Shown: positions 6,728-64,000 of the stretch, one piece after another | Layout: the number at the start of each line of letters is the position of its first letter | How positions within the stretch are numbered: position 1 is the first letter of the stretch | Assembly: GCA_026770705.1 (NCBI GenBank) | Contig: JANJGN010000030.1 | Location: forward strand, 13,206,001-13,270,000 | From: Isurus oxyrinchus | Lineage: Eukaryota | Length of the DNA: 64,000 nucleotides | Direction: 5' to 3' | Position numbers and translations under genes: made by a program | Notes under the pieces: generated by a model | Told to the model about the DNA's origin: nothing | What the model saw: the letters and a program-made list of their open reading frames with translations, nothing else | Databases searched by the model: none

Positions 6728-9700
6728 TTTCAGCAGCAGGTGAAGGACCCCAAATCCCTAAGAACATAGTAGTAAAGAAACTGCAGCCTGACATGAGAGA
6801 AGTGCACCTAACTTGAAGACCTCATATACACAGCTGGAGATTGCCTAAGAAGCTCCATTACAGGTGTGGAGGCTGAAGGGCAGAAGAAAGATGCACTGTG
6901 CAGTGTATAAAGATTCCATTAGAGTACTTGGAAGGTCTGTTGTGAGAACCAATCGAAAGCCAAGTTAAAGGACCTAACAGGACCGCAAAAGGGTAAGCAA
7001 GCTCCAAAAAAAGGCTGAATTGGATGCAATAATCAGGAAGCACTGGCAGACCAATCATTCTTCAAGCGGCACTCATTAAAACACTGAAACCGGTATCCAG
7101 AATCAGCGCTATAACACCGTGCACGAATGGAAAAAAAAATTAAGTTAGAGCAAAAAATTGGTTTCAATTCCGTTCTCCAAGCTTAGGAAAGTAACCAGCT
7201 GGCCAAAACAATCGTTCAAAGCTGTGATGGGAGCCCGTCCTATCTCAACAAGCACAGGAAGAGAAAGCAAAACCATTACTGCAGTGCCATTTCCCAGCTG
7301 TGAATGGTAAGTCAACAATGTCAGATCAAATAAAGCAGATGGAAGTGCTGGACCAGGTGCAAAATTGGGTGTACGGGGAAGATTTTTAAGATAGATGATA
7401 ACAAGAGGCTTGTATAAGAAAATAGAGGCTGAACAAGTGAATACACTTGTTTTCAGCCAGTCCAATCACAGATGACATAATTGCAAGGCAAGGATTAAAT
7501 TAATCATCCGAAAACTTAAGTATTTGACACGTACTTTAAGATAAGAAATAAAATTTTGGAGTAAGCAAAATTTAATGAATCTAAAAGCTGGGGCAACCTG
7601 TAGCCTCTCAAATTAGTTATACAGATTAGCTGAAAGCTGTGACTATGATGACCTTTAAGTCGGAGCTCAGAGAGACCAAATAGTATTGGGAGTGTCTGAT
7701 CTTATGCTTTCTGATGTACAGCAATCTAAAGAAGATCTGACTTTGGAAATGGCCATCCAAATTATCAATAGGAAATCTGCCAGTTAATCCGATCCATTTT
7801 GCATGGCAAAGTTATCCCATGGTACAGAGCAACCCCAACAGTCCAGTTCATAAACCAGTAAAAGGGAAAGGAGACTCCAGGACAAGGAAAGCAATATCCA
7901 AGCAAAACACAAAATGGTGGCAGATCATGTCAGCACTGTGGCGCCAAAAGACATTGCAGGCACGAGCAGTGTCCAGCAGCACTGTGCAGTGCTTTCACTG
8001 CAACCACCTGGGGCACTTTGGAAAGATGTGTAAGTCTAAAAGCTTGATGTGCAGAGGATCACAAACAAGTCCATGAAATAGATGAGCCACACCAAGAAGT
8101 GCAACAATGCTGCTTCGGTGAAATTAAGGATCCCAGATTCACCTTTTGAAATGCCGACATATTTGTAAATGGTCACCGTATGAATTTCAAATTAGACACA
8201 GGAGCCAGTCCTGTTGGGTAAGGAGCCATGGCTCGTGAAACAGTATATGAAGCTATCCATAACACAATTTTATATGGACCTGGAGACATCAAGCTCCATG
8301 TCAAAGGTATTGTGCAAGCTGCTCTCCAATTTAAAAATTAAACATATGGGAGACGCTGGGTGTTCCACAACCAAGAATTTTCTTTACTGAGCAGGAAGTC
8401 CTGTGTCCACGTCTACCTCATCCAGAAGATCAGGATTAACCAGCAACGATTTGGTTCAGATTTCAAAAAGGATGTTCCAAAACTTTTGACTGGGCTGGGA
8501 TGACGGATGAAGACTTGTATGCAGCATAACGCAGAAATGATGCCAAACCCATGTTTATATTTGTACAACAGCAACTTGATAAAATGACTTAGATGTAACT
8601 CAGCTGACAGAATGGTGTTCTGGAATGGTCCCAGTTCTGAAACTAAACTGGGCCATTCGTATCTGTGTTGACCTGACGCAACTTAAGGCAGTGGCAAGGG
8701 AAGTTCACCCTAAACTCTCCAAGAGCACAATGTTCTTGAAACTTGATACCAACAGTGGCTTCTGGCAGGTTCTTTTAGATGAGAAATCTAAGTTGCTGAC
8801 AACTTTTGTAGCCCCCATTTGGCAGATTCTGCTTCAGACATTTACCCTTCAGCAGTACCTTGGCATCCAAGATTTTTCAGTGTACCATGTCTGCCATGTT
8901 ATAAGGACTGAAAGAAGTCATCTGCCATGTGGATATTGCCTTTGGTCATGGTCCGACTGTCAAGGAACATGACAGTAGACTCACAGCTATCTTGAAATGC
9001 TTCCAGGAAGCAGGATTGACACTGAATGATAAGTGCAAGTTCCCCAGGCCCTCCATTTGGTTCTTGGGTCATATGTTGTGAAGGCATCAGGGTGGACCCA
9101 TCCAAAACAAAGGCACTTAGTGAGTTTTCAACCCTGTCATCCATTCTAGACCTCCAAAGGTTCACTGGCATGTTGAACCAATTTGTGAAATTTCTGCTCA
9201 ACTTGGTACAGGTCACAGGCCTTTTTGGGGGCAGAGGCTCTAAGTGTGGTGTTAAGATGCACATCAAGAGCATACATTCTGTCAGGTCAATGCTCTCAAC
9301 AGATCCTGCTCACTGTCACCCATCCCTGCCAACTACAATTGCAGTGGATGTCTTGTCAACAGGACTAGGGGCAATTCCAAGAGCAACTGGTGGATGTCAT
9401 TGACCAGTATATTACTTGTCTAGGGGGCTGTCAGACACAGACGCGTTACATAATTATTGAAAAAAAGGCCCTCAGTAATGTGGGCTTGAGAAGTTCTCTG
9501 ACTCTATTGTTGGGCTGAAAGTAATCACCGAGACAGATCACAAGCCATTGGTCTCACTATTGAACGAGAAAATTTACCAGGATGCTCCCCAGAATTCAGA
9601 GATTCTGCTTGCGTCTTGTGTACTTGGCATATGAGATAGTGGATATCCAGGGGAAGCATCGAATGACTGCAGACACACTGTCCAGGGCGACAATCGACCA

Positions 9701-10570
9701 TCCTGCACATGATCAATCTGGTCGACAAGCTGAAGTCGTATTCCCAGTACATGACAACACAACTGCCAGGGAGCTCCAAAAAGCTTCAACAGGTACACCA
9801 GGAGTAGATGCGAGATGGAGTGTGTGCCCACATCTCAGTTCTGCCTACGAGGTTGGTCACTGCCGCATCCAGATGGCAATGTTATGAAAATTTACTTCAA
9901 ACAGCAGAAACACTTCACTGTTATTGATGGACCTGCTATTGTATGATGAATGTTTGGCCATTTCTGTCTCACCCTGGCCAGAGATTCTACAATAAACCCA
10001 CCAACGCCACTTGGGCATCACCAGTGTAGAGCAGGAGCCCAGTCTGCACTGTGGTGGCCGGGACTATTGAGCGATTGAAGAGATGATTTTAAACTGCCAT
10101 GTGTGCGTGCTGTGCAAACCAGTCCAGAAGGGGAATCCCTTATCCTCATACAGTTCCCTACCAGACTATATTAACTTTTGGGAATGGATCAATTCATATA
10201 TAATGGCAAGTCCTTCCTCATTATTGTTGATTATTTCTCTCGGATCGAAGAGAAGTGTTTACACACAACCACAGAGTCGGTCATTAGGTCGTTGAAAGAA
10301 ATTTTGTGATCCATGGCATATATTCATTTGCTATTGAATAATTCACTTTTTTTCTGGAATTGCTGCTTTCAACACCTCATCAGCTCCCCAAGGCATCCAC
10401 AGTCTAACGGTGAGAGGGAAAGGGGCGTCTGCACTATTAAAATCCTCCTGAAAAATTATGACTTTCTAATGGTGCGTTTGAGACAGATCCACCCCACTAC
10501 AATGTGAATTAGCCCCATCAGAACTGCTGATGGGCAGAAAACTTTGCACTTAACTTCTCATGCTGCCAGA

Positions 10571-23739: not shown

Positions 23740-24490
23740 TGTGTTTGCACTTAGTAAGAACATGCATGAGAAGAAAATGAGCCTTCTCATCAGCAACACC
23801 TAGAAAACAAAGGCCCTCTTACAATCAGTTCCCACAGCGCAACAACACCTGTTGATTAAGATCAATTTAGACCATTTTCCACACATTGCCAGCCACCCCT
23901 TGATGAAAGCAAACATTGGCAATGAAATTCTTCATCACTTACAATGTGCCAGTTCATTGTTCAGCCAACTGAGGGTAAGAGCATTTGAGGACCAGGATCT
24001 CCAGACCAAGGTCATGGTTCACCAGACAGCAGTGATGTCTGCACTCCCACCTATGTTTTTGAGATTTGGAAAGCCTGCAGCATTTACCTCAAAGCATCAC
24101 CGGCAGTGTCCTTGAAAGATCCTCCAAATCCTGTGGCAAGAAAGGCAGTGCAACAGCAAGGTTGCACCAAATCAACATGCCCAGCCTATAGGTGCTAATT
24201 GCTCAAAGCCATCTCCACTAAAAGACTTTTTAGGGATGATCTCAAAGCATCCCAAAGGAGGTCAAACATCTCCACCGACTCATGGCAACCAAACAAAATG
24301 GCAGAAAGTTCATTCAGGAAGGCAACGAATTCATTGGGAACACACAGAGACAAAGTCAAGTCAGCGGAGTCAGTACAAAAGCCTCCAAACAACACCTGCC
24401 TCACATGTGGCCGAGTCTGCAGATCACACATTGGACTTAACAGCCACCTCCAGAACCCATCAAACAAGGCAACCCTGAGCCCAAAGAACT
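23740..24490 (+). mobile_element. RTE LINE 3' fragment
   Basis: HFPHIAS...NEILHHLQCASSLFSQLRVRAFEDQDL.TKVMVHQTAV and terminal zinc finger CLTCGRVCRSHIGLNSH. Confidence 0.8.
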
Positions 24491-24729
24491 GCATAAGAAG
24501 AAAAACTAGTGAGTCTTAAAACTGCTTTACTACTGATTCCTGTGGGAACCTATAATTCACTTAAAAACACTTAATTTAGTCTGATTTTCTAGGAACACAT
24601 CTACAGTGTTTAAGTGAGGACTTATTATACCAAATAGTTTGATAATTCCTCTGAATAAATTGCTTTGCCATACAGCTCTGATGTCAATAAGTGTTTTTAA
24701 AATTAAATAGTTCCTAGTTATTCACATTC

Positions 24730-25819
24730 GCCTGAGTGTGGCATTAAGGAGCCCTAGCAAAACTGGAGTCAATGGGAATCGGGAAAACTCTCCACTGGCT
24801 GGAGTCATACCTAGCACAAAGGAAGATAGTTACGGTTGTTGGAGGTCAGTCATCTCAGCTCCAGGACATCACTGCAGGAGTTCCTCAGGATGGTGTCCTT
24901 GGCCCAACCACCTTCATCAATGGCCTTCCTTCCATCATAAGGCCAGAAGTGGGGATGTTCACTGATTGCACAATGTTCATCATTCGTGACTCCGATGCTG
25001 TAGTAGCCCATGTCCAAGTACAGCAAAACCTGGACAATATCCAGGCTGACAAGTGGCAAGTAACATCTGTGCCGCACAAGTGCCAGGCAATGACCATCTC
25101 TAAGAAGAGAGAATCTAACCATCGCCCCAAGACATTCAATGGCATTGCCATCACTGATTCCCCCGCTATCAATGTCGTGGGGGTTACCATTGACCAGAAA
25201 CTGAACTGGACCAGCCATTTAGATACTGTGGCTACAAGAGCAGGTCAGAGGCTAAGAATCCTGCAAAGAGTAACTTGCCTCCTGCCTCCACAAAGCCTGT
25301 GCACTATCTACAAGGCACAAGTCAGGAGTGTGATGGAATGCCCTCCTCTTGCCTCAAGAAGCTTGACATCACCCAGGACAAAGCAGCCCACTTGATCAAC
25401 ATGACATCCACAAACATTCACTCTCTCTATCACTGATGCACAGTAGCAGCAGTTTCTACCATTTACAAGATGCACTACAGGAATTCACCAAGGCTCCTTA
25501 GATAGTACCTTCCAAACCCCTGACCACTACCATCTAGAAGGACAAAGGCAGCAGACACAAGAACACCAACTGGAAGTTCCCCTCCAAGTCATTCACCATC
25601 CTGACTTAGAAATATATCACTTCTTTTACTGTCGCTGGGTCAAAATCCTGGAACTCCCTTCTTAACAGCAGCGTTCCTAACAGTACCTACACCACATGGA
25701 CTGCAGCAGTTCAAGAAGGCAGCTCACCACCAGCTTCTTGGGGGCATCTAGGGATGGACGATAAATGCTGGCCCAGCCAGCGAAGCCCACATCCCGTGAA
25801 TGAATTTTAAAAAAAAAAA
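24730..25819 (+). mobile_element. 5'-truncated FADD-family LINE with poly(A) tail
   Basis: ORF 24772-25395: WLESYLAQRK...ITAGVPQDGVLGPT...TIYKAQVRSVME; tail ends cccgtgaatgaattttaaaaaaaaaaa. Confidence 0.88.
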
Positions 25820-32440: not shown

Positions 32441-33548
32441 ATGGATACCAGTGAAGAGCTTCCAAAAAAAGTCTTCAAGGCCAGAAAAACAATGCGCGCA
32501 AGTGACCGACAACAGCTAGAGGCTATCTATAAAAGCAGAGAGGAACTTTTAAAAGCCAATGAAGAGACCAAAACTAAACTGTGTAATGGTAGACATGAAA
32601 ATGGAGATTGTGACAACAAAGCTTCACTAAATACTAACTGCATGGATGATGCTGACATTGATAGTATTAATGATGTGAGGCTGGGACCTGAGGAACTGCA
32701 AGGCAACTCCATTGATGAACTTAGTATCACACAAACACCTGAACTAAACTTTGCTGAAAAATGTCTTAATGAAACTAAGGATTTAAGCTCAAAAGATGAA
32801 AAAATGGACTCGACATCCCCAGCTGCTAAAGATGAACAGATTTCTACTGGGAGCACAGGAAACCAAATTTTGGTAGATGTTGAGAGCAAAAGAGATGACA
32901 CTGTGGAATCAGACTGTGTTGAGTTGAAGCAGGATTCTTTAATTGCAGATAAATCATGTTCTGATTCTCAGAGCCTTTCAGAAAAGGAAAGACCACCTTC
33001 TGTTGATGACAGCAGGAGTCAGGAAATACCAGATGAAAGTAGCCTTAAGCTCCAGTCTTCCTCTTCCTCTGTGAGAGAAAAGGAAGACCATGAAAGTTCA
33101 TTGGACATTAGTGAAGAGGCAATAACAAGTAGCATAGAATCTGTGCAGGAGAAAAATGATTGTGAAAGCTCTAAGATGGAATGTGCAGAGACTGAAAGTG
33201 AGATTGCAACAAAAGACAAATTAAGTGAGAACAAATCAGCTGAGAACAACCAACTGGAAATTGAAGAAATAATCCCCATTTTGGAGAAATTGGCCCCAGA
33301 GAAGGACAATGAAATAGCCTGTAACCAAGGAATTGTTCCTGTAGTGGATTCCCCAGCACCAAAGGACAGTCCATCAAAAGACTTGCAGGAAGAACAGATG
33401 GACGCATCTCCATGCAGTTCTCCAACAAAAGAAGAGTGCAATGGCAACTTGCCAGAAGAAGCATTCCTTGTTTTATCAGATGAGGATGAGCCAATAATTG
33501 AGAGTAAAACAGAAAGTGAAGAGCTGGTACCAAAAAATGATGATCCAG
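32441..33548 (+). CDS. ATF7IP: ATF7IP/MCAF1 first coding exon (exon starts 32431, ATG 32441, ends phase 1)
   Basis: MDTSEELPKKVFKARKTMRASDRQQLEAIYK, NGRHENGD, EEIIPILEKLAP and LPEEAFLVLSDED match the ATF7IP N-terminus. Acceptor ttttcttgctttcag, donor CAG/gtatgc. Confidence 0.96.
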
Positions 33549-36500
33549 GTATGCTTGCTTGGTGTTGTGCTGCATTGTCACTGAAAATATTTTGGATGTA
33601 ATTTGGTGCTAAATTTAAGGGTGCTGATTCTCCCTTTCACTTGTTAGGCCTGTTCTCATCAATTGTAAATGTCCTACAATTGTAAAACGTATATGCAGTT
33701 CTGATTGGCAATGACTCCATAACTTGGGCTGGAAGGGTGGCTGGCATGTAGTTGTGGGAATTTCATATTGTAGATGTGGGTATTTTTGAGGCTGTGCATT
33801 AAAACAGAATAGAAACAGTTTTACTCAAACTTAAGTGATATGAATGGTTTAGGGTTGCAAAAAGAAGGAACATAACCCCATTTCTAAGCATTAAGATTTT
33901 TCTTTGATCAGTTCCAAAAATATTTTTAAGTAATTGTTACCAAAGTGATGAATGTCATATCCTGAATATATCATATAGATGCAGAAACAATGGGAATGAG
34001 TAACAGAAAAACCTGAAAAGTAAAATAATAGCTCTATATAATACCTTTAATATAGAAAACACTCAAAGGGTCTTCAAAGATGGAATGGGACAAATAAAAA
34101 CGGAAGAGCTTAGAAAGGGTATTTCCACAGGGGCTAGATGGCTGAAGGAAGCCCTCCAATAGGAGAAGGGAATGAAAGATTTACAAGTGGCCAACCATAT
34201 ATAAAACTGTGAATCATTTTATTGCCTAAGTTTGATTGTTAATTTGGTAAAATTAAACATATACAACTGTTAAATGCATGTACTTGCAATAGACTACAAA
34301 TGCTGTTGGGAGGAGTAAAGAAGGAAGATGTCAATGATTTTAGTATTCATGCTTTTTGATATATAATTTTGCCCTCCTCAGCTATTTGTAATGCCTTGTT
34401 TTCTGTTCCTGTTATGTCATTAGCACAAAAGTTTATAAATGTCTTGGTTGCTTGATCTTTGTACCTTTTTGATATCGGTCCACTGAAGCTTGCCTCTGCA
34501 TGGTTAACTCTCTGGACTGCAGTTTTAAGACATGCATCTGAATCTTTCCTAATAACTGCGAATCACAATGCCGCTCTTTCAGCATTGCACAACATTAGAT
34601 GGAATATAAAAACTGAACCCTCTGCCTTAGCAGCTAAATATGCTGCTTGGTTTGGATCAGGATTATGGAGGGAAAGATCAGATTGCACTCCACATAGCTA
34701 TCTAGTTCCTGCTGGAAATTACAAATGAAGACAGAATTAGCCTCACTGTGATCAACTAGCCAATGAATAGCTTGATGGCCGCTGTTGCAGCTGGCCATTT
34801 AGACCCCATGTGCCCTGGAGCTGCTTATAGCTGTGAACCCGCATCCCTCCATGATTCACTTGGGAGAGGAGTGGCAAAGAGTGTGACAAAATATGAAGTT
34901 ATGGAATGGGAAAAGGGTAATTTGCCCATCAAACCCCATTCCTCCTCCCACAATGTATAATCCAGCTTCAGGATGGAAAATATGCTCTTTCAAATTCTGG
35001 ATAAGATCTGAAGAAGACTGTTTAATTGCTGGAAGGCAGCCCTGACTGCAAAAGTGTCCAGCCCTTCTGTTGCAGTGAATTTTGGTTCCTTGTCCCCATA
35101 GAAGTAAAATTCAGCTTTGTGGATGAGATGGAGAAAATCAAACATACACACACACACCCCTGCTCAATATTCATACTTAGCATTTATTTCCAGCACAGTT
35201 CTGTTCAATTTTCACTGGACGTTTAGCGTTCTCATTAACACGCAGTTATCAGTGCCATTAGAAGCAATCATTTGGTTTCAGTCTAGATACCAATCCAGGT
35301 TAATATCAGCAGAAAGGATCAACAGTAGGCTGTGATGGCTCCTGTTAAATGGAAACATAGGTGCAGCAGTAGGCAATTCGGTCCATCAAGCCTGATCCAC
35401 CATTCATGAGATCATCGCCAATCATCTATTTTTTGAAGGCAAGGCAGGAAGAAGACTGTTTAGCTGTTGAGTTTGTCTCAACATATTGCTAGTTTTTCAT
35501 TTGAAGATGGTTTTACAGTACCTGCAACTGCCTAAGAAGTGCAGGCTTTGACAATTCAAGTATTTCCCCGTAGTGCTGTGTGCTCGGTTCTGTCTGAACT
35601 CTAAAGTTAGTTGTTTTGCTAACCTCTAAGAAGACTTCCCTCTTCTCGGAGAGGAGCTTTATCTCAATATTTTCTTCTGGCAAAACCCTCAAGTTTCGTT
35701 TTGCCATTCCACGATTGGAGAAGTATTCATTTGACACTCTACATACTTTTACAAATTACTTCCTAACAAGGACTCTGACCCTTGGATCCCAAGAAGACTA
35801 CAGGTCAAATATTTCCAAGCTCTAATTAGCTATTTGTATTGGTAGAGATAACAAAAATAAATTTCAACTAACCACCTGTTCGATGACAATAACTTTGTAT
35901 ATTGGAAGTTTGTACAAAGGTCCGAATTATTGGTTCTTTTTATATATTTGCCTGTATTCAGCTGTTTTTGTTCTGTGGCCTGACTGGTTACAGTCATAAT
36001 AAATAATTGCTCTGATGCGTTTCAAGGTTAGCAGCTTGACTTTAGGACCTGCTCTCAATTTTAGTTACAGAGGTGCTGGTCACAGATAGTCAGTGACTTG
36101 TGCTAGGTGTTCTACTGCTGCTACCTAGTACCAAATGATGCAGTAGCGTAACCCAGGCATGGAAAAATAGGGTTGCATAGTGATCAGAACTAGACATTCT
36201 GTCTTTTTGTGTATGCCCTCCCCATGTGTTTCTCTAGTCACTTCAAAAGCATACTGAGAAAAACTTGGTGAAACAAGACCAGACAAAAATTCATTACGCT
36301 GCTTTAATTCACTAACTGCAGGTGAATTTAGAAAAGTTAGAGTAAATTCCACTCTGTTAACTCAATCTCACTTCACTCATCAAAAAATCATTGAAGTAAT
36401 AAACTATACACTGTCTTTTTTGCAGGCAGACTGACTGACAAGTTTTTGCATGCTGTTGCCTTTAGACAAGTTCTAACTCTAAGACCTAACCTGCATTTGT

Positions 36501-37606: not shown

Positions 37607-37657
37607 ATACAGACCATAAAGAGCAAGCAGCTGATACAAGACAAAAGCAAGAACCAA
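37607..37657 (+). CDS. ATF7IP: ATF7IP second coding exon (51 nt, phase 1-1)
   Basis: Acceptor ttttacattctgcttcatag, donor A/gtaagt; open in frame (DTDHKEQAADTRQKQEP). The call rests on splice signals and position; sequence similarity is weak. Confidence 0.75.
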
Positions 37658-42329: not shown

Positions 42330-42475
42330 ACGAAGTTGTGCCACGAAAAAGGTCCAAGTCTGAAGATGCGGAAAGCAGTATATCCAAGCGGTGTCGGTTT
42401 TCTGAAGATGAATATGAGGCTGCCTTAAAAGTGAAGATCACTGCCAGAGGGGAGATCCGCCAGACGCTGGAGAAG
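42330..42475 (+). CDS. ATF7IP: ATF7IP third coding exon (146 nt), with basic NLS-like segment and start of SETDB1-binding region
   Basis: (N)EVVPRKRSKSEDAESSISKRCRFSEDEYEAALKVKITARGEIRQTLEK, similar to mammalian RRKRSKSED...EYEAEFQVKITAKGDI. Acceptor tctttgtag, donor AAG/gtatgt. Confidence 0.95.
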
Positions 42476-44611: not shown

Positions 44612-44749
44612 ATTGTTCAACAGATTATTGAAGAACGCATCAGTTCCATGCAGAGTGGTGTTTTCGACAAGAAGCTGGCAGAGCTGAAAAACAGAGTAGA
44701 AAAGATTGAATGCAGCACGAGGCATGAATCTTTAATCAGTGGCTTACAG
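44612..44749 (+). CDS. ATF7IP: ATF7IP fourth coding exon (138 nt), SETDB1-binding coiled coil; GC donor
   Basis: IVQQIIEERISSMQSGVFDKKLAELKNRVEKIECSTRHESLISGLQ, similar to mammalian VFDKTLAELKTRVEKIECNKRH. Acceptor tttttatacag, donor CAG/gcaagt. Confidence 0.94.
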
Positions 44750-45529
44750 GCAAGTACTAGAATCTGTAGCTTTCTGCGATGTAGAGGGTAGAAATAATTT
44801 GGAAATTCTGGGCTGACACTGATGCAATTTTACATGCCCTGTGCATGAACAGCCAGAGCATGGTAATTTTTCAGAATTAGTTGAGTTTTTTCTGTAGTCC
44901 AAAATCCCAGATTAACATACAATAAAAGCTGACTTTGCCTCAACATGCACAGTTGAAAATAAGATGGTCTGCCATTGTCCAGTCAGCTAGAAAGATTGTC
45001 ACTGCTGAATAGTAATCATGTTTATTAACATGTAACTTTTGTTCCTACAAGAATTTATCACAAACAATGCAAACGCTGTAAATTTATGGCTCCCAACCTA
45101 ACTTTGAAGGATGTGGATTTGCAGCTGCCTTTGACCAAAAGAAGGAAGCAAGAGCAAATAAATGTGTGCCATATTTCTCTGCCTTTCATTAACTCGCATT
45201 GACAAAGACCTATTGGCAATTCAGGCTTGCTGCTTTACCATGTTGCTGTGTGAAGTACTTTCTTCAAGCAGAACTTGCTCTTTTAATGATCTTATCACAA
45301 AAATCCTGAAAGGTACAATGCAAAAAATATAATGACTAAAAACTATCAGTCATAAATTATTGATTTGAAATTTCTGCTTGTTTGCTTGATCTGTTGTGAT
45401 GGTCCCAGAATCAGACATGCACAGCAATTGCCTCCCAAACTATACATGATATCAACGATGAAAACACAAACCAAAAACGCTTGGCTATTTTTGAACGTTG
45501 CAGAAATCTTAACAGGCGCTATCTTAACT

Positions 45530-46093
45530 CTGCCACATGTCACCTGGAATATTGTGTGCAGTTTTGGTCATCTTATCTGAGGAAGGATGTTCTTGCTATA
45601 GAGGGAGTGCAGCAAAGGTTTACCAGACTGATTCCTGGGATGGCAGGACTGACACATGAGGAGCGATTAAGTCGGTTAGGATTATATTCGCTGGAGTTCA
45701 GAAGAATGAGGGGGGGATCTCATAGAAACCGATAAAATTCTAACAGGACTAGACAGGGTAGATATAGAAAGGATGTTCCCGATGGTGGGGAGTCCAGAAT
45801 CCGGGGTCACAGTCTGAGGATAAGGGGTAGACCATTTAGGACTGAGATGAGAATTTCTTCACCCAGAGAGTGGTGAGCCTGTGGAATTTACTACCACAGA
45901 AAGTAGTTGAGGCCAAAACATTGTATGTTTTCAAGAAGGAGTTAGATATAGCTCTTGGGGCGAAAGGGATCAACGGATATGGTGAGAATGCGGGAGCAGG
46001 CTATTGAGTTGGATGATCAGCCATGATCATAAGGAATGGTGGAGCAGGCTTGAAGGGCCGAATGGCCTACTTCTCCTATTTTCTATGTTTCTA
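45530..46093 (+). mobile_element. CR1 (HER1-like) LINE 3' end, well preserved
   Basis: HLEYCVQFWSSYLRKDVLAIEGVQQRFTRLIPGM...LGLYSLEFRRMRG; tail gaagggccgaatggcctact...ttctatgtttcta. Confidence 0.9.
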
Positions 46094-48541: not shown

Positions 48542-48622
48542 GCAAAGCTCATGCAAATAGAGAAAAGGCTAGGCTCAGCAAATCAAGCTCGCAATGATTC
48601 TGCCTTGAAAAAAGCACAAGAG
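48542..48622 (+). CDS. ATF7IP: ATF7IP fifth coding exon (81 nt, phase 0-0)
   Basis: AKLMQIEKRLGSANQARNDSALKKAQE, similar to mammalian AKIARLTKRF...LKKRHE. Acceptor cttttctgcag, donor GAG/gtaggt. Confidence 0.9.
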
Positions 48623-53012: not shown

Positions 53013-55477
53013 GGGTGAATCCCCTGTTCACCAACTTCAGCAGAACAGCTCCTCCGCTGAGTGTGGAGATACAAAATGTGGGTGTTTGTGAGAAGATGAA
53101 ATATCACAAATCCTTTAATAAGGGATATTTAACCTATCAGTGGGGAGCAAGGAAGTACTTCAGATTGAAATTATTGCTCTACAATTTTTTTCCAGGAGAT
53201 ATTCTAGGAGTTCTAAATGTTCTAGGAGATATTCCTATTTGTAGTATATTCTGGCTCGTAACAGGAACATAACCAGGCACAATCATGAACCATGGCCCTG
53301 TGGGTTGCATTTTTTAGACAACTTTAATATTAGTTGGATGTTACTACTTCGTCCTGTGCGTCTTACCACTGTTTAAAGTGTCATAGGTTACTTTGTTTAT
53401 TTTGTATTGATCGTCAGTGAACTGTCATAAATGAGCTTTTTGTAGCAGTTTGGTACAATGATTGACATGCAGTGGCTGCTGTTTGAAAGTAATCTGCTGA
53501 CCAGATGCCAGTCATGCTAAATTTTCCAGCCAAAGCAAATCTCTAATTTGTTCTTGTGCAAACAACCTGTTTGTGGGCAGGTTGGGGGGTGGGGGTCTGG
53601 GGCGGGGGGGTGGGGGGGTGTTGGGGAAGCAAGGATTCAGACAAATTGTAGTCTGTTGAAATTACAGTGTGTGACTGAGATTGGAAGGTGATGCAAAAGA
53701 GGGAAAAGATTGTGAATTTTCTTTTGGAAACTTCAAAAATTTAGAGGTACTATAGGATCTGCACCTAGTGGAGGTATAAATTAGAACTGTTGTATGGGCT
53801 CAGTATTCATGCCTACTGCCCTGCCACCATTCTGTACAGGCTCAGACATCACAACCACTGTTCAGCTGTCATTCTGTTCCATACTGGGAGCTTGAGAGCA
53901 CCTCAATTTTCTAACAGCACGATGGACCTCATGATTGGCTCAAAAATGTTATTCAGGCTGAAACTTCATTTGGCTGCATTATGTTGGAAAATAGTTTGAT
54001 TTACACTGAAAATTAATAATGATTTTTTGAAACCATGCATATACTTGATTTTGTTAAAGAATTTGTTCTCAAAAGCTGGAAGATGAGGTTCTCGTGAAGT
54101 GTGAAAACGGGAGTCCAAATACTTAGATAAAATTAAAATTTTACTGTTTACTGCCATAAGCAGAATTTTGGAACCATGTTACTGACAAACACTTTTTAAA
54201 TTGGATGGATTTCCAAGCCAGTAACTTGGAGTTTTGAACCACCTTTTGTTATCAGGATTGTTCCTCACTTATTACTGTAGTTGTACAATTGCAGTCTGTC
54301 TTAGATGTAGAGATTTGCAGGAAGTACAGATTGATTTTGCAGTGAGCATTGAACACATTGAGAAAACTCAATGGGCTGATTTCCAACTGCCATGTGGAGA
54401 AGTGCACCTTTGGTTTCAGAACCATTCACATGGAGTTTACAGCTTTTTGATTGGATGATCCACCAAAGCTAGTGTGTTGTAAAGATCCCAGTTAAATTCC
54501 TGATGCACTGAACTTGTATCTGCAAGAACCCTGAAAAAACAGCCTGGTTTTCCTCCTCTTCCTCTCGTGATTGATAAGTTATTGATGTCACGATGACTTG
54601 ACAGCCTTCATTCGTTGACATGTAATGACACTGCTGTGGCATCACTGAACAGGATGAGACAAGTACATTTAACTCAAGTAAGTGAGCAAAGTTCTTTTTA
54701 ATCTAATGAAACCATCTGTAAAGAAAGACCTTTAAAGTTAGTGAACTGAGATGAAATGTTATGGGTTGAATAATATATACTATGAGTTGTGATGTACCTG
54801 TTATATGATTCATTTGAATTCTTTGGGCAATTATGCCGGAGCACAAGTTATTTGAAATCTAATTCTCAACTCTGTAATTGGATAGGCTAACAAATGTTTC
54901 TGTTGTTTGAGGTTCAGACTCTTCTCTATTTGGGTTGTAACAAGCCTCCACTATTTGTGGTCTTGAGCTTCTGACTCGATATTGAAGCTTTGCAACTATC
55001 AGGAAATCAAAATCATGCTTGGGTTTTATTTTGAACCAGGAGTGCAATCAATTTGGATTTACTTTGTAGAGTTGAGTAGTGAAAAATTACTAACGCCACT
55101 CGACCCTGAAAATAAACAAATGAGTCCTTGGCTCATAACCAGCATGCTGAAGTTTCAGTGCTTTGTTGTAACCCTAATATTGTGGAAACTGCTTTTAACA
55201 GGAGTGCTGTACATTCAGTGAAACAGACTGCTGGCTGCAATATTGTATAACAGGTGGTGGCATTGCCCCAGACTCTACATGTGATGCACTGAAACCGCTG
55301 AAGTAGTTGCCATCACCAGATGGTTTCTCGTGTTTTCTTCTGCCACCATCCAAAAAGTCAATTGTTCATTGAATCGATTGAAACTCAAAGGAACACAGTT
55401 TAATCATATTTATCTTGCCCCAAATTTTAAGAGGTTCGCTGGCTTTACTGGCAGGTTCTTCTGTTTCTTTGTCTCAG

Positions 55478-57196
55478 ATTCTTGCACCTTTTCAACCAGA
55501 AATGCAATTTGACTTGAGCAACAGAGAGGAGTTCAAGTTGGCAAAGAAAAATGAGACACACCAATTTGGCAAGTCCATTGTGGAGATGGAACAGGTTCTA
55601 CTGCAACTAAATGAAACTCTGTCTCCAACAGGCCCGGCAAGTGTATTGCGCAATCAACAAGTTGCATTACAAGATAATAGATCCGGTAAGCCTTTGAAAA
55701 AGCAGAAAGTTCCACTGGAGGATTGGAGGGTTTTTGCTGAATCAGGCAAAGCTGTTACATTAAAACAACAGGCTCTGTTGCAGCATAACAGAACTCTAAG
55801 TATTAAACAGAAACCCACTACAGATAAACAGCCTGCATTAATAAATGATCAAGGTTACTGTAACTCATTTGGGGACATTATAGTGGAGGAGCATGAGGCG
55901 CCATTAAAAATTAGTAGAACTTCAAAGAGTATGTTTGTCCAGTTAACCACAAGGAAACCACAGGCTTATAATAGTATGTCTGTCAGGCAAAAGTCAGTTC
56001 TTTTACTAAAGGCTAATGGCCCCAGCAGTATATCAAGAAAACCTGACCCAGGACAGCAACAGGTGATACTACTTGAGGAAGTGACTCCCTCTGTTGTCCT
56101 TGATGAGCCTGATGTAAGTAAACCACATGTAATATTACAAGAAAATAAGACTCAGTATAATGAGAGAACTTCAGAAAATCAACATACAGTATTGCTAGAG
56201 AATAGAGCTCCCTTTAATGCATTTGCTGAACCTCCTGTGGAGCAGCAGGTTCTATTGCCGGATGACCAAACTCCCAAAGGCATTTATAAACCTGTCCCAG
56301 ACAACAGAAAGAGGATGATCATACAAGATAGCATAATTCCCTACAATACAAAGAGAGCCACCGCCTGGGGCATTCAGGCTTGGGATGAGTGGGCTAGAAA
56401 CCGAAATAACTGCTTCATGGAAAATAATATGGAATGCTGTGAGTCAACCCTTTATGTGCCGGTACTGTCTCATGAAATAACTCACAGTGAACTGAATTTC
56501 TGGCTGTGCCACTTTGTGGAAGAAGTCCGTCGGCGGGATGGATCATTTTATCCACCTAATTCTCTCCGTCTCCTGTGCTGCTCCATCTTGCGATACTTGC
56601 GTGAAACCTGCCAGCGACTAGACATTGATTTCTTTAACGAATATAATATGGAGTATGCTGCATTTCGGGCTATCCTTGACAGACGCATGAGAAAACTTAA
56701 ACAACAGGGGATTGGTATAGTAAGGAAACAAGCACAGCCTTATTCAGAGGAAGAGGAAGAAAAACTGTGGCAACTAGTTTTTCAACTTCACGATGCAAGA
56801 AGTTACAGTTATGCTGTCTATTTCTACCTCTGTAAAGTCTTTGGTGTACACGCAGCAGTAGAACACAATAAATTGATGGTTGATCAGTTTACCTTTGGAG
56901 CTGATGAAATTGGAGAATATTTGGAATTTGTGGCAAAGCCTTACAGAGGCGGGATCCAAAGAACTAAAGGACACACTTGGCAGTATGCAGATTTAACCAA
57001 CCCAAGGTGTATTGTTTCTCTTTTTCGTCGCTACCTCAGCATGGTTCCAAGTAATGGTCCGTTTTACCGGCGCCCTCTTCCCGGGCGGCTGGAATTCTGT
57101 CAGCAGGCTATTGGAGTTCACACACTGGAGCGTTACTCCAAAGAAATCTGTGAGGCAGGTGGCATTTCAGGACGGCATACTGGCCAATCTGGAAGG
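55478..57196 (+). CDS. 1719-nt exon: degenerate repeat region plus Crypton/DUF3504 tyrosine-recombinase-like domain; predicted alternative ATF7IP exon
   Basis: Uninterrupted 573 codons. IPYNTKRATAWG...W..W, ELNFWLCHFVEEVRRRDGSFYPPNSL, LDRRMRKLKQQGIG...EEEEKLW, FGVHAAVEH, NPRCIVSLFRRYLS, FYRRP, IGVHTL and HTGQSGR are DUF3504/Crypton motifs (ZMYM2-4, QRICH1, KCTD1, KIAA1958 type). Acceptor ttcttctgtttctttgtctcag, donor AGG/gtaagt, both phase 0. Confidence 0.9.
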
Positions 57197-59846
57197 GTAA
57201 GTATGAACAGTGTTTTGTTAATGTTGCAAAGACAGTAGGTGTTTTACTCCCTGGTGTCTATTATATGCATTTCAATGCATCTAACAGTCTGTGTAGAAGT
57301 TAACCCATTGTAGGTATAGTTTGTTGTTAGATGCTATATTTATGCATTCTGTATTTTAAAGGTCAAGTGACAAAGCCTCTTTTTTTACACAATTGTGAAC
57401 TGGAAGAAAACTTAAGTTGCATATACTACTGCATTTTAATTTGATTGCTTTGCCTATTTTAACCCCAATCACTGGTTCTGCTGCCTCCACTTTTGGCACT
57501 TGCTTATAGACCAAATTTAGCCTTGATGCAGCCTTCACTGAGACCCAAGATTGTCTGGTAGGAGCTAATATTCAAGAAGGCTGTCAGATTATATTGTTCA
57601 TATATTCTTCATGCTTTCCCCCTTCTACCCCCTCATCCTTTCCAGTAGGTTTCTGCACGTTGGTCCTTCCAGTGCTCAGGAGTCTCGTCCAACTGCAACA
57701 GGGGTAATGGCAGTCAGTCCTGGAACTTGAATTGCAACTAATAGGCTAAAATTCTACTGCGTGCCACCTGCATTTCTGTTAGCTTCCCACCAAAAGGATG
57801 TCATAATTGTCTAGTAACTGGGAAGCTCTGAGAAACCAATTCCATAATGTTAAAAATGTTGCTTTTAAATTGGGACTCATTAAGATTGTACTGTAAGTAG
57901 ATCAAGTCATCTTCAAAGTGTTGTGGTTACAATTCCATTGAAATTGATGAAGTTTTTGTCCAGCCAGAAATAAATTTGCTCCAGTAACAGACATGGTTGA
58001 ACATGATCTGGAGAGATTGCACCTGTATAATTATAGCCTGCTTCCAGAGATGGTAAATAGTTTCCCAATACACTCTGGTAGCCTTTTCTGAGATTATTTC
58101 AGCTAGGATGAGACTTTTCATGTTGCTTCAGTGGGAATATGAACTTATTCGAGTGTATGATACCATTCAAAAAATCAGCTCTGATTTCCAGTGTTGTAAC
58201 CCCAAAACCAAATATAACCAACTAGAATAAAACTTTATCCTGTTTCCTCCCACCCTGACCTTTTCATACATTAACTTTGCAGTAAGCAGTGATTTACAGA
58301 GATGTGTGAGATCCGTCCATCAATTATCTTTTACTGCAGAAACTTTTTTTCAGTTAATGAAATTTCATTGGTGAGAGCACTCTTGACAGGACAGCTAGAT
58401 TAATTCAAAATTGACATTGATTACCTCTCAGATCATAGCATATATATAAAATAATGTTTATTGCAATGTGCAGCTGCCACCTCCTAGCAATAAAAGTTTT
58501 CAAATTGTTTTTTGACAAAGATATTTTAACTAGGCTTACTGTATTAGGGTCCAAAGTGGGTTCCACTTAGATTGCATTCCTTGCATTATATTCAACAATT
58601 TAATGAAGAATTTGTTTAACCTTTCCAAAAGAATATATTTTCAATTATATTAAAATTTAGGTTCTGAATTATCCTAGTCAAACTCTCCAGACGTTTGACG
58701 GAACCTTAACGAATCATGTAAAATATTAAACTTCATATTTTAATTATTCTGTATAGGACCAGAGAAATTAGCTTGAATAAGAATAATGCCATTTTAAAAC
58801 TAGTATTAGGAAGAATTACTTTACGAAGGGTGATAAATTCTGGAATGAACTGCCAAAGTAGGAGGAGGAAAAGGGTTTTCTACAAATTCAGCAGTTTGGT
58901 TGCTAAAGAGATGAGTTTTGGTGAACTCATTTACCATCCTCACTATAACTGTTTGATATGACTTTTGAATAAGTTGGAAGACTTGATAAATCTGCATTCC
59001 AACTGTAGCAAATCCTCCACTGTTTCCGTGGCTTATGGAGGACTTCCATTTTAGTACATGGTCTGTCTCATTAGAAGGTTTGAGAACCTTATTTCAACAG
59101 TGTTCAGTCTTGGGGGCAGTACAGTGAGGTTGAAGGTACTAAGAGCATTTGTAGGTAAGTGTTAAATCATTTTTCATCAACATAATCTGACAGCACAGCT
59201 TATATGTCATCACTGAGTTCCCTTCCTAGCTATTGCCCTTATTTTCATAGTTTAATATTGCCAGACCTAAATGTTTACCTAAGACAAAATTTAAAAACAC
59301 CATTATCCGAATAGTTTCATTTTTTGAAATTGGATTTGTATTTTTTGTTCACAATGACCATTGACGTTCTAATCAGAAATTGAGAAAAGCTTTGTCATTT
59401 GAACTTTAAAAAAACTTTCTGATAATTTTTAATACTTGATACTTGTGGCTTATTGGTGTTAATACAGCGGAGCCCTGCAACAGATCAACATCCAAATTGC
59501 AAAAGGATTTTTCCCCCAGTGTTTAACCATGTTAAAATAATATTAGCTATATTCTAAAGTAGCAGCAAATTTTGTTAACAGTATTGTGATTTCAATAAAG
59601 TTGATCTGAAGTGGACTTCGTCACAGTCTTGAGTTATTGCTGTTGAATTAAAAATGCAGGGTGCTGTATGTGCTACTCTCTCTGATAAATTGTTCATTGC
59701 AAGTATGTATACAATAAGCCCTCACTTTTGCACTGTGACAGACCCCGGTACTTTTTACATTGGGTATCAACTGTCAGTGATGATGGAAACCACCATTTCT
59801 GTATCTTCCTTTATCCTCTGCTTCCCCACCACAACGATGAAGCTAA

Positions 59847-62029: not shown

Positions 62030-62287
62030 GCCAGCAGTGTAGCTGCCCTTCACAGTCGTGGCTTTGATGAAGAGCTAATTAAGGAACGAATGGGAAATGG
62101 CAGTAGTGCAATGATGTCCTGCAAAAAGACTCAAATGAAGGCAGTATCTGACTGTTTGCAGCCTCCAAATCCTTTGAAGAAAATCTCAGCTTGTTCACAG
62201 TCGTCATCTGCCTTGAGACAGCAAAGTGTTTGTGCACACGAAGCAGTGACCAATAGTCCCCAGCCAGAAACTGAAGTTACAAACTGA
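62030..62287 (+). CDS. Terminal coding exon completing the Crypton/DUF3504 domain
   Basis: Acceptor ttcattttgttgtag, phase 0. ASSVAALHSRGFDEELIKERMGNGSSAMMSCKKTQMKAVSDCLQPP continues the recombinase box II pattern (AT..T.L...G.DE.LI.ERTGH.S.....YK......VS..L). Stop TGA at 62285-62287. Confidence 0.88.
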   Translation, partial: ASSVAALHSRGFDEELIKERMGNGSSAMMSCKKTQMKAVSDCLQPPNPLKKISACSQSSSALRQQSVCAHEAVTNSPQPETEVTN

Positions 62288-62967: not shown

Positions 62968-64000
62968 TTTTTTCAGTCCGTGGGATATGGGTATCACTGG
63001 CCAGCATTTGTTCTCCATCCTCAATTGCCTTTTAAGGAGCTGGTGGTGATTAACAGTCTTGAACCACTATGGTCCATGTGGTCTTGGTACAACCATAGTG
63101 CTTTTAGGTAGGAAGTCCCATGGTTTTGACCCATTGACGATTAAGGCATGGTAGTATGTTTTCAAGTCAGGATGGTGTGTGACTTGAAGGGAACTTGCAA
63201 GTGGTGGTGCTCCCATATATCAGCTGCCCCCTTCTAGGTGGTAGAAAACTTAAGTTAGGAAGGTGCTGTCAAGGGAAGCCTTGGCAAGTTGTTGCTGTGC
63301 GCTGTGTAGATTGTAAATCCTGTCAGGTGTGCCATTGGCAGAGGGAGTGAATGTTTTAGTGTGGTGGATGGAGTGCTGATCATGTAGTCCTGGATGGTGT
63401 CAAATTTGAGTGCTGTTGCAGTTGCACTCAGGAGTGTGATGGAATATTCTGGCTGATGCTTGTGGACAGAGTTTGGGGAGTTGGGAGGTGAGTTACCTAC
63501 TGTAGAATACTCTGCCTCTGGCCTCTTGTAGCCACAGTAATAACTGGTCCAGTTAACTTTCCTGTCAATTGTAAACCCCAAGATAATGTTAGTGGGGGAT
63601 TCAGCAATAGTAATGCCATTGAATTTCAAAGGGACATGGCTAGATTCTCCCTTGTTTGGGATAGTTTTTCCTGGCACTTGTATGGCATGGATGTAACTTG
63701 CCACTTAACTGTCCAAGACTGAATGTTGCCTGGATCTTGCTGCATATGGACATGGACTGCTTCAGCATCTAAGGAGTTATGAATGGTGCTGAACATTGTG
63801 CAATCATCAGCAAACATCCCACTTCTGATTTTATTATGGAAAGATCATTGATGAAGCCGCTGCAAATGGTTGGGCCTAGAACATTGCCCTGAGGAACTCC
63901 TGCAGCGATGTCATAGCCTTTATGCTAGGTTTGACTCACAACTAGTGGAAAGTTTTCCTCCTGATTCCCATTGACTTCAATTTTACTAAGGCTCCTTGAT
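62968..64000 (-). mobile_element. FADD-family LINE, antisense, runs off the window end
   Basis: Minus ORF MFADDCTMFSTIHNS (63626-63817); tail tgggatatgggtatcactggccagcatt. Confidence 0.85.

What the first reader, a model, noticed from the sequence alone, without database searches (positions are those of the whole stretch)
55583..56332. About 12 degenerate 21-22-aa repeats with SIM-like cores ahead of the DUF3504 domain
Seen: recurring units EQVLLQLN, QQVALQDN, QKVPLEDW, QQALLQHN, QPALINDQ, HEAPLKIS, KSVLLLKAN, QQVILLEE, PHVILQEN, HTVLLENR, QQVLLPDD, KRMIIQDS, mostly 20-22 residues apart and hard to see at DNA level, so probably old. Several cores (VILLEE, VVLDE, DIIVEE, VLLE) fit the hydrophobic-plus-acidic SUMO-interacting motif. 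Inference: the isoform would lose the single canonical ATF7IP SIM and may gain a multi-SIM array, as in multi-SUMO-binding ZMYM2. I do not recognise this repeat as a described family.
Basis: partly seen in the sequence, partly recalled or inferred. Interest (0 to 1): 0.7.

Follow-up and report, generated by a model that had tools for sequence, protein, structure and literature searches.

The report
Shark transposon-derived repeat spacer in ATF7IP
A shark gene-silencing gene has captured a disabled transposon enzyme whose first short segment was copied 12 times into a fast-changing and likely floppy spacer; the repeats are real and apparently undescribed, but they do not look like the SUMO-binding sites first proposed.

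Summary
The repeat is real: 12 units, 8 of 11 spacings 21-22 aa, periodicity z up to 6.1. It lies in a Crypton-derived, catalytically dead tyrosine-recombinase (QRICH1/DUF3504) exon inside the ATF7IP gene of a shark-like genome. Seven other elasmobranchs carry the array, with 5 to 21 units. The unit is a tandem copy of the Crypton N-terminal cap. A repeat-less paralogue in the same genome is colinear with it, and the last unit is predicted as the first helix of the domain. The other units are predicted disordered.

The SIM reading fails. No published SIM pattern occurs in 8 of 8 species. The array is net basic. The acidic look-alikes are mostly private to this species. Cores are no better conserved than linkers (p 0.26). 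The array changes about three to four times faster than the domain or ATF7IP's own acidic region.

The isoform inference is partly supported. RefSeq models of five species join ATF7IP to this exon, which drops the downstream SIM and FNIII domain, but I saw no read of that junction.

Verdict: an old, decaying, lineage-restricted spacer in a likely new Crypton domestication; modest interest.

The parts
32441..33548 (+). ATF7IP first coding exon (acidic N-terminal region)
   Evidence: 91-93% identity to shark fusion proteins; donor at 33549
37607..37657 (+). ATF7IP small coding exon
   Evidence: tblastn; splice sites read
42330..42475 (+). ATF7IP exon, start of Pfam ATF7IP_BD
44612..44749 (+). 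ATF7IP_BD exon (GC donor)
   Evidence: Pfam PF16788 match; joined to the next exon in contigs of 4 of 4 runs
48542..48622 (+). Last ATF7IP exon before the Crypton exon; phase-0 donor
   Evidence: joined to the Crypton exon in RefSeq models of 5 species
55323..55477 (+). Relic of the ancestral 5' end of the Crypton-derived gene; the old start codon is lost, and the present acceptor lies inside old coding sequence
   Evidence: DNA alignment to the paralogue L004, score 107.7 against a null maximum of 67 in 500 shuffles
55478..57196 (+). Crypton-derived exon 1 (573 codons), phase 0 at both ends; in-frame ATG at 55502
   Evidence: orthologue gene models
55565..56350 (+). Array of 12 degenerate units, mostly 21-22 aa; units 1-11 predicted disordered
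   Evidence: pLDDT below 50 for exon aa 1-257
56033..56098 (+). Unit 8, the best SIM look-alike; its aliphatic run plus acids is not kept in most orthologues
56099..56155 (+). Unit 9, holds a strict PxVxL here; PxVxL in 2, LxVxL in 1 and PxVxF in 3 of the 6 other sharks
   Evidence: fails the expanded HP1 signature
56285..56350 (+). Unit 12, the source-like unit; predicted first helix (56303-56335) of the recombinase N-terminal domain
   Evidence: helix 276-286 with block pLDDT about 85-91; 1:1 orthologue in all species
56360..57196 (+). Tyrosine-recombinase-like fold: Pfam QRICH1 (56360-56683) and DUF3504 (56744-57055); first catalytic Arg and the His of H-x-x-R replaced
62030..62287 (+). Crypton-derived exon 2, end of the recombinase fold; catalytic Tyr position is Cys here; early stop at 62285-62287
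   Evidence: spliced to 57196 in contigs of runs X1 and X3, two studies

Best explanation
The array is a run of 12 old tandem copies of the 21-22-residue N-terminal cap of a disabled Crypton recombinase, and it likely serves only as a loosely constrained, predicted-disordered spacer between the ATF7IP part and the DUF3504 domain. Shown: periodicity; colinearity with a repeat-less paralogue; unit number of 5-21 across species; fast change; no SIM patterns. Inferred steps: (1) a standalone two-exon Crypton-derived gene lay in an ATF7IP intron; (2) its cap segment was amplified in frame by unequal crossover or slippage before sharks and skates split; (3) the array then froze and decayed, and one shark lineage lost about nine units by a crossover between two units; (4) an acceptor inside the old coding sequence lets ATF7IP splice into it, giving an isoform that would keep the likely SETDB1-binding helices but swap the SIM and FNIII domain for a DUF3504 domain. 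Only the last copy is predicted to keep its job as a helix of the domain.
For: Origin: the paralogue's N-terminus aligns without gaps to the exon start and unit 1 (34% over 47 aa, E 2e-6; DNA score 107.7 vs null maximum 67), and its next residues align to the end of unit 12. A profile built without the first and last units ranks unit 12 at p 0.005. Its best HMM hit falls on the cap in 7 of the 28 Crypton-like proteins that gave any hit (52 searched; 1.9 expected). Copy number: 12, 12, 12, 10, 17, 21, 20, 5 in window, S. canicula, S. torazame, Mustelus, Heterodontus, Heptranchias, Pristiophorus, Rhinoraja. Window units 2-12 map 1:1 to Heptranchias 11-21. Rate: 1.12 changes per site in the array vs 0.29 in the domain (7 sharks), and 0.78 vs 0.24 in ATF7IP's acidic region (4 sharks); cores 1.06 vs rest 1.16, p 0.26. 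Run X1 against the window: 7 non-synonymous and 2 synonymous changes in the array vs 1 and 2 in the domain (Fisher p 0.03). Both AlphaFold models leave the array below pLDDT 50 and make the last unit a helix.
Against: The core Leu shows a non-significant trend to extra conservation (0.64 changes per site, p 0.07) and is still present in 74 of 97 units. Nine differences cannot exclude moderate constraint (omega 0.5 gives P 0.33), and they come from contigs of depth under 5. Low pLDDT may reflect only 8 close homologues in the array part of the alignments. The match of the unit profile to the paralogue's cap is weak (p 0.04 and 0.17 in two paralogues; not significant in 4 of 4 more distant proteins), and all HMM scores on distant caps are below threshold. 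The ATF7IP-to-exon junction was not seen in the five runs laid; two contigs read unspliced across the acceptor. Orthologue sequences are gene models, and no orthologue DNA was available for dN/dS.
Confidence: 0.7

Rival explanations
1. The units form a multivalent weak-binding scaffold that is not SUMO-based: spare copies of the cap helix dock on DUF3504 domains or their partners, or the Val-x-Leu cores bind a shared surface such as the HP1 chromoshadow dimer.
For: The unit descends from a helix of the domain. Val-x-Leu occurs 11 times in the window vs 2.1 by chance, and two strict PxVxL occur (p 0.014). HP1 motifs are described as sitting in disordered, basic regions (PMC12526061, abstract and sections 4 and 19). 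The core Leu trend has p 0.07.
Against: The expanded HP1 signature is met 0 times in 8 of 8 species. The -2 position is mostly Gln, Lys or Arg rather than hydrophobic. Strict PxVxL is absent from 4 of 8 species. Proline interrupts the core in 5 of 12 window units and 8 of 21 Heptranchias units. Unit number ranges from 5 to 21.
Confidence: 0.15
2. The array is a multi-SIM module that replaces the lost ATF7IP SIM and binds poly-SUMO, as ZMYM2 does.
For: The isoform would lose the canonical SIMb. The region is predicted disordered. Four loose aliphatic-plus-acid look-alikes occur in the window vs 0.6 expected. ZMYM2, another DUF3504 protein, is a multi-SUMO binder (passages of PMC10629813), and weak SIMs can act by avidity (passages of PMC3901395).
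Against: 0 SIMa, SIMb, SIMr or V/I-x-V/I-V/I in 8 of 8 species. The array is net basic (+3 to +23). Two or more acids follow the core in 3 of 12 window units, 0 of 21 in Heptranchias and 0 of 20 in Pristiophorus. The source unit is predicted as a helix, whereas SIMs bind as strands. Four of the seven amino-acid differences to run X1 fall in or beside cores without pattern.
Confidence: 0.07
3. The array is mostly translated as the leader of a standalone DUF3504 protein from the ATG at 55502, or is rarely translated, and the ATF7IP fusion is a minor or model-only product.
For: The paralogue starts at its own ATG just after in-frame stops. Two of seven orthologue models are standalone (P0001, P0002). 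Two contigs read unspliced across the acceptor. Array-bearing proteins were found in 7 species, whereas the paralogue's cluster has 20 members.
Against: Five species have fusion models, four with the same acceptor. Donor and acceptor are both phase 0. The ancestral ATG is lost in the window. The domain is 87-92% identical among sharks, so the exon is under selection. This rival is compatible with the spacer reading.
Confidence: 0.08

Closest known systems
Crypton-derived YR sequence in an ATF7IP intron of birds and mammals (Kojima and Jurka 2011, PMC3212892; sections 9 and 10 read, supplements searched)
   Same: A Crypton recombinase sequence inside ATF7IP, conserved, and predicted to be spliced to ATF7IP.
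   Different: The bird copy has an intact recombinase frame. This exon lacks catalytic residues, has an internal intron and carries the array. A second Crypton frame with a full R-H-R-Y set lies further down the same shark gene (L008) and is the better candidate orthologue of the bird copy (not tested; no bird sequence was retrieved).
DUF3504 proteins QRICH1, ZMYM2/3/4, KCTD1, KIAA1958
   Same: Dead Crypton recombinase domain at the C-terminus of a chromatin protein, behind a long N-terminal region. The best PDB match by sequence and by fold is QRICH1 in Zincore, 9HJT.
   Different: Only 18% identical to QRICH1 over the fold match. The human genes lost the Tyr and second Arg; this family keeps the second Arg, and the Tyr in 7 of 7 orthologues, but lost the first Arg and both His positions. 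No such repeat was reported in the text I read.
Multi-SIM arrays of RNF4 and ZMYM2
   Same: Repeated short hydrophobic cores about 20 residues apart in a predicted disordered region of a nuclear protein.
   Different: No consensus SIM, no acidic flanks, net basic, cores not conserved.
Repeat-less elasmobranch paralogue (uncharacterized 507-508 aa proteins, P0003 cluster; own copy L004 + L006)
   Same: Same two coding exons, same intron position, colinear N-terminus, 66% identical domain.
   Different: One cap segment only, own ATG, 94% identical between this genome and a ray, and no ATF7IP-like sequence in 50 kb fetched around it.

Membership tests
SUMO-interacting motif array | Consensus core (SIMa, SIMb, SIMr or V/I-x-V/I-V/I) | tested here: not met
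   0 in 8 of 8 species; the same kind of search finds the gene's own SIMb downstream
SUMO-interacting motif array | Acidic flanks beside the core | tested here: not met
   Two or more acids after the core in 3 of 12 window units and 0-2 units in each orthologue; net charge positive in 8 of 8
SUMO-interacting motif array | Cores conserved above their surroundings | tested here: not met
   1.06 vs 1.16 changes per site, p 0.26
SUMO-interacting motif array | Located in a disordered region | tested here: met
   pLDDT below 50 in two models; a prediction on shallow alignments
SUMO-interacting motif array | Binds SUMO or SUMO chains | not testable with these tools
   needs pull-down or ITC
Domesticated Crypton / DUF3504 gene | DUF3504 / tyrosine-recombinase fold | tested here: met
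   Pfam QRICH1 60.3 bits and DUF3504 29.7 bits, at the cut-off; Foldseek QRICH1 E 9.5e-10, Cre E 2e-6
Domesticated Crypton / DUF3504 gene | Loss of the catalytic set | tested here: met
   First Arg to His, His to Gln and second His to Asn in orthologues; same in the window, plus Tyr to Cys
Domesticated Crypton / DUF3504 gene | Low copy, fixed locus, purifying selection | tested here: met
   One array copy and one close paralogue in the own genome (lower bounds); attached to ATF7IP in 5 gene models; domain 87-92% among sharks
Domesticated Crypton / DUF3504 gene | Expressed | tested here: inconclusive
   Internal intron spliced in contigs of two studies; the runs are only guessed to be RNA and no protein evidence exists
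One of the four known animal DUF3504 clusters | Groups with KCTD1, KIAA1958a, KIAA1958b/L or WOC/ZMYM/QRICH1 in a tree | not tested
   No tree built; the nearest non-elasmobranch hits are Latimeria P0005 (48%) and invertebrate Crypton-like proteins
HP1-binding PxVxL / HAC array | Hydrophobic -2, Val/Ile 0, aliphatic +2, basic +4, three or more basic residues | tested here: not met
   0 in 8 of 8 species; signature from PMC12526061 section 19, defined for Drosophila

The most novel reading that the evidence does not exclude
Sharks and skates hard-wired what mammals do in trans. In mammals the ATF7IP FNIII domain recruits the DUF3504 protein ZMYM2. Here an isoform drops FNIII and the SIM and tethers its own transposon-derived DUF3504 domain to the SETDB1-binding helices. 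The amplified cap repeats act as a tunable multivalent arm that oligomerises the domain or grips heterochromatin partners, so that repeat number (5-21) tunes silencing per lineage.
Probability: 0.15. Interest if true: 0.7.

Novelty: new variant of a known kind. Interest (0 to 1): 0.35.

Why it matters
The array is a clean case of a protein repeat born from a domesticated transposon's own cap segment, with a readable history of gain, freezing and block loss. If it is only a spacer, it matters little by itself. The host exon matters more. It appears to be a Crypton domestication that I did not find in print, and it gives cartilaginous fishes a predicted ATF7IP isoform that could aim the SETDB1 silencing enzyme through a recombinase-derived domain. 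That offers a natural construct for testing what DUF3504 domains do.

Tried and rejected
Tandem Repeats Finder found no array. Pfam gave nothing for the array. The Atlas did not hold the window's sequence and gave no usable hit for the S. canicula array. A search of 1.84 billion representatives gave array matches only in P0001 and P0010 among the best 150 rows; other long or upstream matches that I opened were multi-domain Crypton-like or low-complexity proteins. The array has one place in the own genome, so it is not a dispersed element. SUMO-attachment sites, CDK sites, basic clusters and FAM-like motifs were not enriched. A folded solenoid was not predicted for 12 or 20 units; one low-confidence hairpin appeared in the second model. 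No RNA holder was on record. The ATF7IP-to-exon junction was not seen in five runs laid; cover was sparse, so this is no evidence of absence. I first took P0003 and P0004 for repeat-less ray orthologues; one search showed a 94% copy on another contig, so they are paralogues. The idea that the paralogue sits in an ATF7IP ohnologue region found no support: no GRIN2 tail match on that contig under a stricter first look and no ATF7IP-like match in 50 kb. The window row was out of frame and was not used. No complex prediction was run, as no SUMO or HP1 sequence was held. Earlier findings: none returned. Literature: 'DUF3504 + ATF7IP' gave 2 papers, 'Crypton + domesticated + shark' 6, 'Crypton + KIAA1958 + tyrosine recombinase' 1; none described this repeat in what I saw. 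Subscription journals and bioRxiv supplements were not searched.

Full report
Setting. The window holds the 5' half of ATF7IP in a 5.0-Gb genome. Its coding exons match shark ATF7IP proteins at 89-94%. A GRIN2-like gene lies 0.7 Mb upstream and the FNIII exon about 61 kb beyond the window end. The finding lies in a 618-codon open frame, 55382-57238, with Pfam QRICH1 and DUF3504 behind it. The predicted fold matches QRICH1 in Zincore and Cre recombinase. Kojima and Jurka (PMC3212892; passages, sections 9 and 10, and a term search of 6 supplements) show that DUF3504 is a domesticated Crypton recombinase and report one such sequence in an ATF7IP intron of birds and mammals.

Observation. The repeat is real. 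Autocorrelation peaks at lags 21-22 (z 4.7 and 6.1) with harmonics, beyond all 2000 shuffles. An iterated profile finds 12 units against 0.12 in shuffles, spanning 55565-56350. Across 97 units from seven species the core has Val at position 8 (49), Leu at 10 (74), then Gln (52), Asp or Glu (55), Asn or Ser (64) and Arg or Lys (59), and is preceded by Lys, Gln, Gln (44, 47, 42). The DNA signal is weak.

Gene structure. The exon runs 55478-57196 and continues at 62030-62287. Contigs from two studies carry the splice between them. RefSeq models of S. canicula, Mustelus, Heterodontus, Heptranchias and the skate Rhinoraja join ATF7IP to this exon; the skate model enters further downstream. These proteins keep about positions 4-100 of the 219-position ATF7IP_BD profile. 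That this includes the two helices needed for SETDB1 binding (mouse 627-694; passages of PMC7706265) is my inference, as I held no mouse sequence. The canonical SIMb and the FNIII domain lie in later exons and would be lost. I did not see the upstream junction in five runs, and two low-depth contigs read unspliced across the acceptor. Two other models are standalone. Both transcript forms remain possible.

Origin of the unit. The genome holds a paralogue on another contig with the same intron and no array. It starts at its own ATG. Its N-terminus is colinear with the start of the window's exon and unit 1 (E 2e-6; DNA score 107.7 against a null maximum of 67) and runs on as the end of unit 12 does. 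The DNA homology reaches upstream of the present acceptor, so that acceptor arose inside old coding sequence and the old start is lost here. Unit 12 is predicted as the first helix of the domain in both models and aligns with the 21-22-residue cap that precedes the first long helix in invertebrate Crypton-like proteins. The statistical link of inner units to distant caps is modest: best hit on the cap in 7 of 28 proteins with any hit, of 52 searched, 1.9 expected, all scores below threshold.

History. Units number 12, 12, 12, 10, 17, 21, 20 and 5 in the window, two Scyliorhinus, Mustelus, Heterodontus, Heptranchias, Pristiophorus and Rhinoraja. Window units 2-12 are 1:1 with Heptranchias 11-21. 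The window, Scyliorhinus and Mustelus share one gap of about nine units that cuts through a core, as a crossover between two units would. Heptranchias units 7, 10 and 13, and 9 and 12, resemble each other, which points to block duplication. The skate shares four inner units and the last one, so the array predates the shark-skate split (inference). Paralogous units are 21-24% identical, so there has been no recent homogenisation.

Constraint. The array is 63-74% identical among sharks, the domain 87-92% and ATF7IP's acidic exon 86-94%. Parsimony changes per site are 1.12 against 0.29, and 0.78 against 0.24 on four taxa (the species tree is from my own knowledge, and columns with more than one gap were dropped from the core test). 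Cores are not better kept than the rest (p 0.26); the core Leu shows a trend (p 0.07). Against run X1 the array has 7 amino-acid-changing and 2 silent differences over 604 and 166 sites, and the domain 1 and 2 over 670 and 184. This fits near-neutral drift and rejects domain-like constraint (P 0.009) but not omega 0.5 (P 0.33). These contigs have depth under 5 in the array.

SIM test. With definitions from PMC3395311 (passages), SIMa, SIMb, SIMr and V/I-x-V/I-V/I occur 0 times in 8 of 8 species. Looser four-residue cores are no more frequent than chance. The loosest look-alike is enriched in the window (4 against 0.6) but occurs 0-2 times in each orthologue, at different sites. The array is net basic in all. 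Flanking acids matter for SIM affinity and SIMs bind as strands (passages of PMC3901395). An HP1-type reading also fails its expanded signature in 8 of 8 species, though unit 9 holds a strict PxVxL in three species.

Mechanism. Shown: repeat, homology to the cap, variable number, fast change, lack of SIM patterns, loss of catalytic residues. Predicted: disorder of units 1-11 and helix in unit 12. Inferred: in-frame amplification by slippage or unequal crossover was tolerated because the region only has to stay open and flexible; it now spaces the ATF7IP helices from the DUF3504 domain. I put this at 0.7, a non-SUMO multivalent role at 0.15, a multi-SIM role at 0.07 and a mainly standalone or rarely translated product at 0.08.

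Comparison and novelty. The exon works like other domesticated Crypton domains and meets the tested membership features; which cluster it belongs to was not tested. It is probably not the copy described in birds: a second Crypton frame with the full catalytic set lies downstream in the same gene (L008). My three targeted literature searches showed no description of the repeat or of this exon. In mammals the FNIII domain of ATF7IP recruits ZMYM2, a DUF3504 protein, which makes the predicted shark fusion a suggestive parallel. The array is a new variant of a known kind, with interest 0.35.

Noticed in passing
L008:1318-2685 (G000:C30:13287943-13289310, beyond the window): A second Crypton frame of 456 codons inside the same ATF7IP gene, with a complete R-H-R-Y set. 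If it is the orthologue of the bird intron copy, that insertion is older than the amniote date in PMC3212892 and may encode an active recombinase.
   Followed up: partly
L004 and L006 (G000:C14, about 27.616-27.622 Mb): Standalone two-exon DUF3504 gene, 94% identical to a ray protein, with a 20-member cluster across sharks and rays and a 48% relative in Latimeria; unnamed in the sources. A candidate further Crypton domestication.
   Followed up: partly
window 57196/57197: The intron falls right after the H-x-x-R-equivalent motif, at the same place as in the paralogue; several invertebrate Crypton-like proteins end or diverge at this spot, hinting at an old intron.
   Followed up: no
window 62285-62287: An early stop shortens the C-terminal tail here; run X1 reads a sense codon at this place, and Scyliorhinus and Mustelus end in another frame. 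The tail seems dispensable.
   Followed up: partly
window 55119-55254: The S. torazame model uses a homologous stretch as an upstream exon joined to the Crypton exon; a GT donor is present at 55254 but the frame has a stop here. Possibly a non-coding leader exon of a standalone transcript.
   Followed up: no
window 55436-55477: Fourteen residues of the old frame upstream of the acceptor are identical in Pristiophorus; splice-signal constraint or residual coding use.
   Followed up: no
window 44749/44750: The ATF7IP_BD exon ends in a GC donor that is used in contigs of 4 of 4 runs.
   Followed up: partly
L009 (G000:C4, about 108.247 Mb): A further DUF3504-like frame; it resembles KIAA1958 (recalled, not tested).
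   Followed up: no
window 7741-9887: Fragmented LTR-retrotransposon-like gag, reverse transcriptase and RNase H frames (by eye); broken LINE frames also lie at 23804-25395, 45400-45735 and 63255-63704.
   Followed up: no
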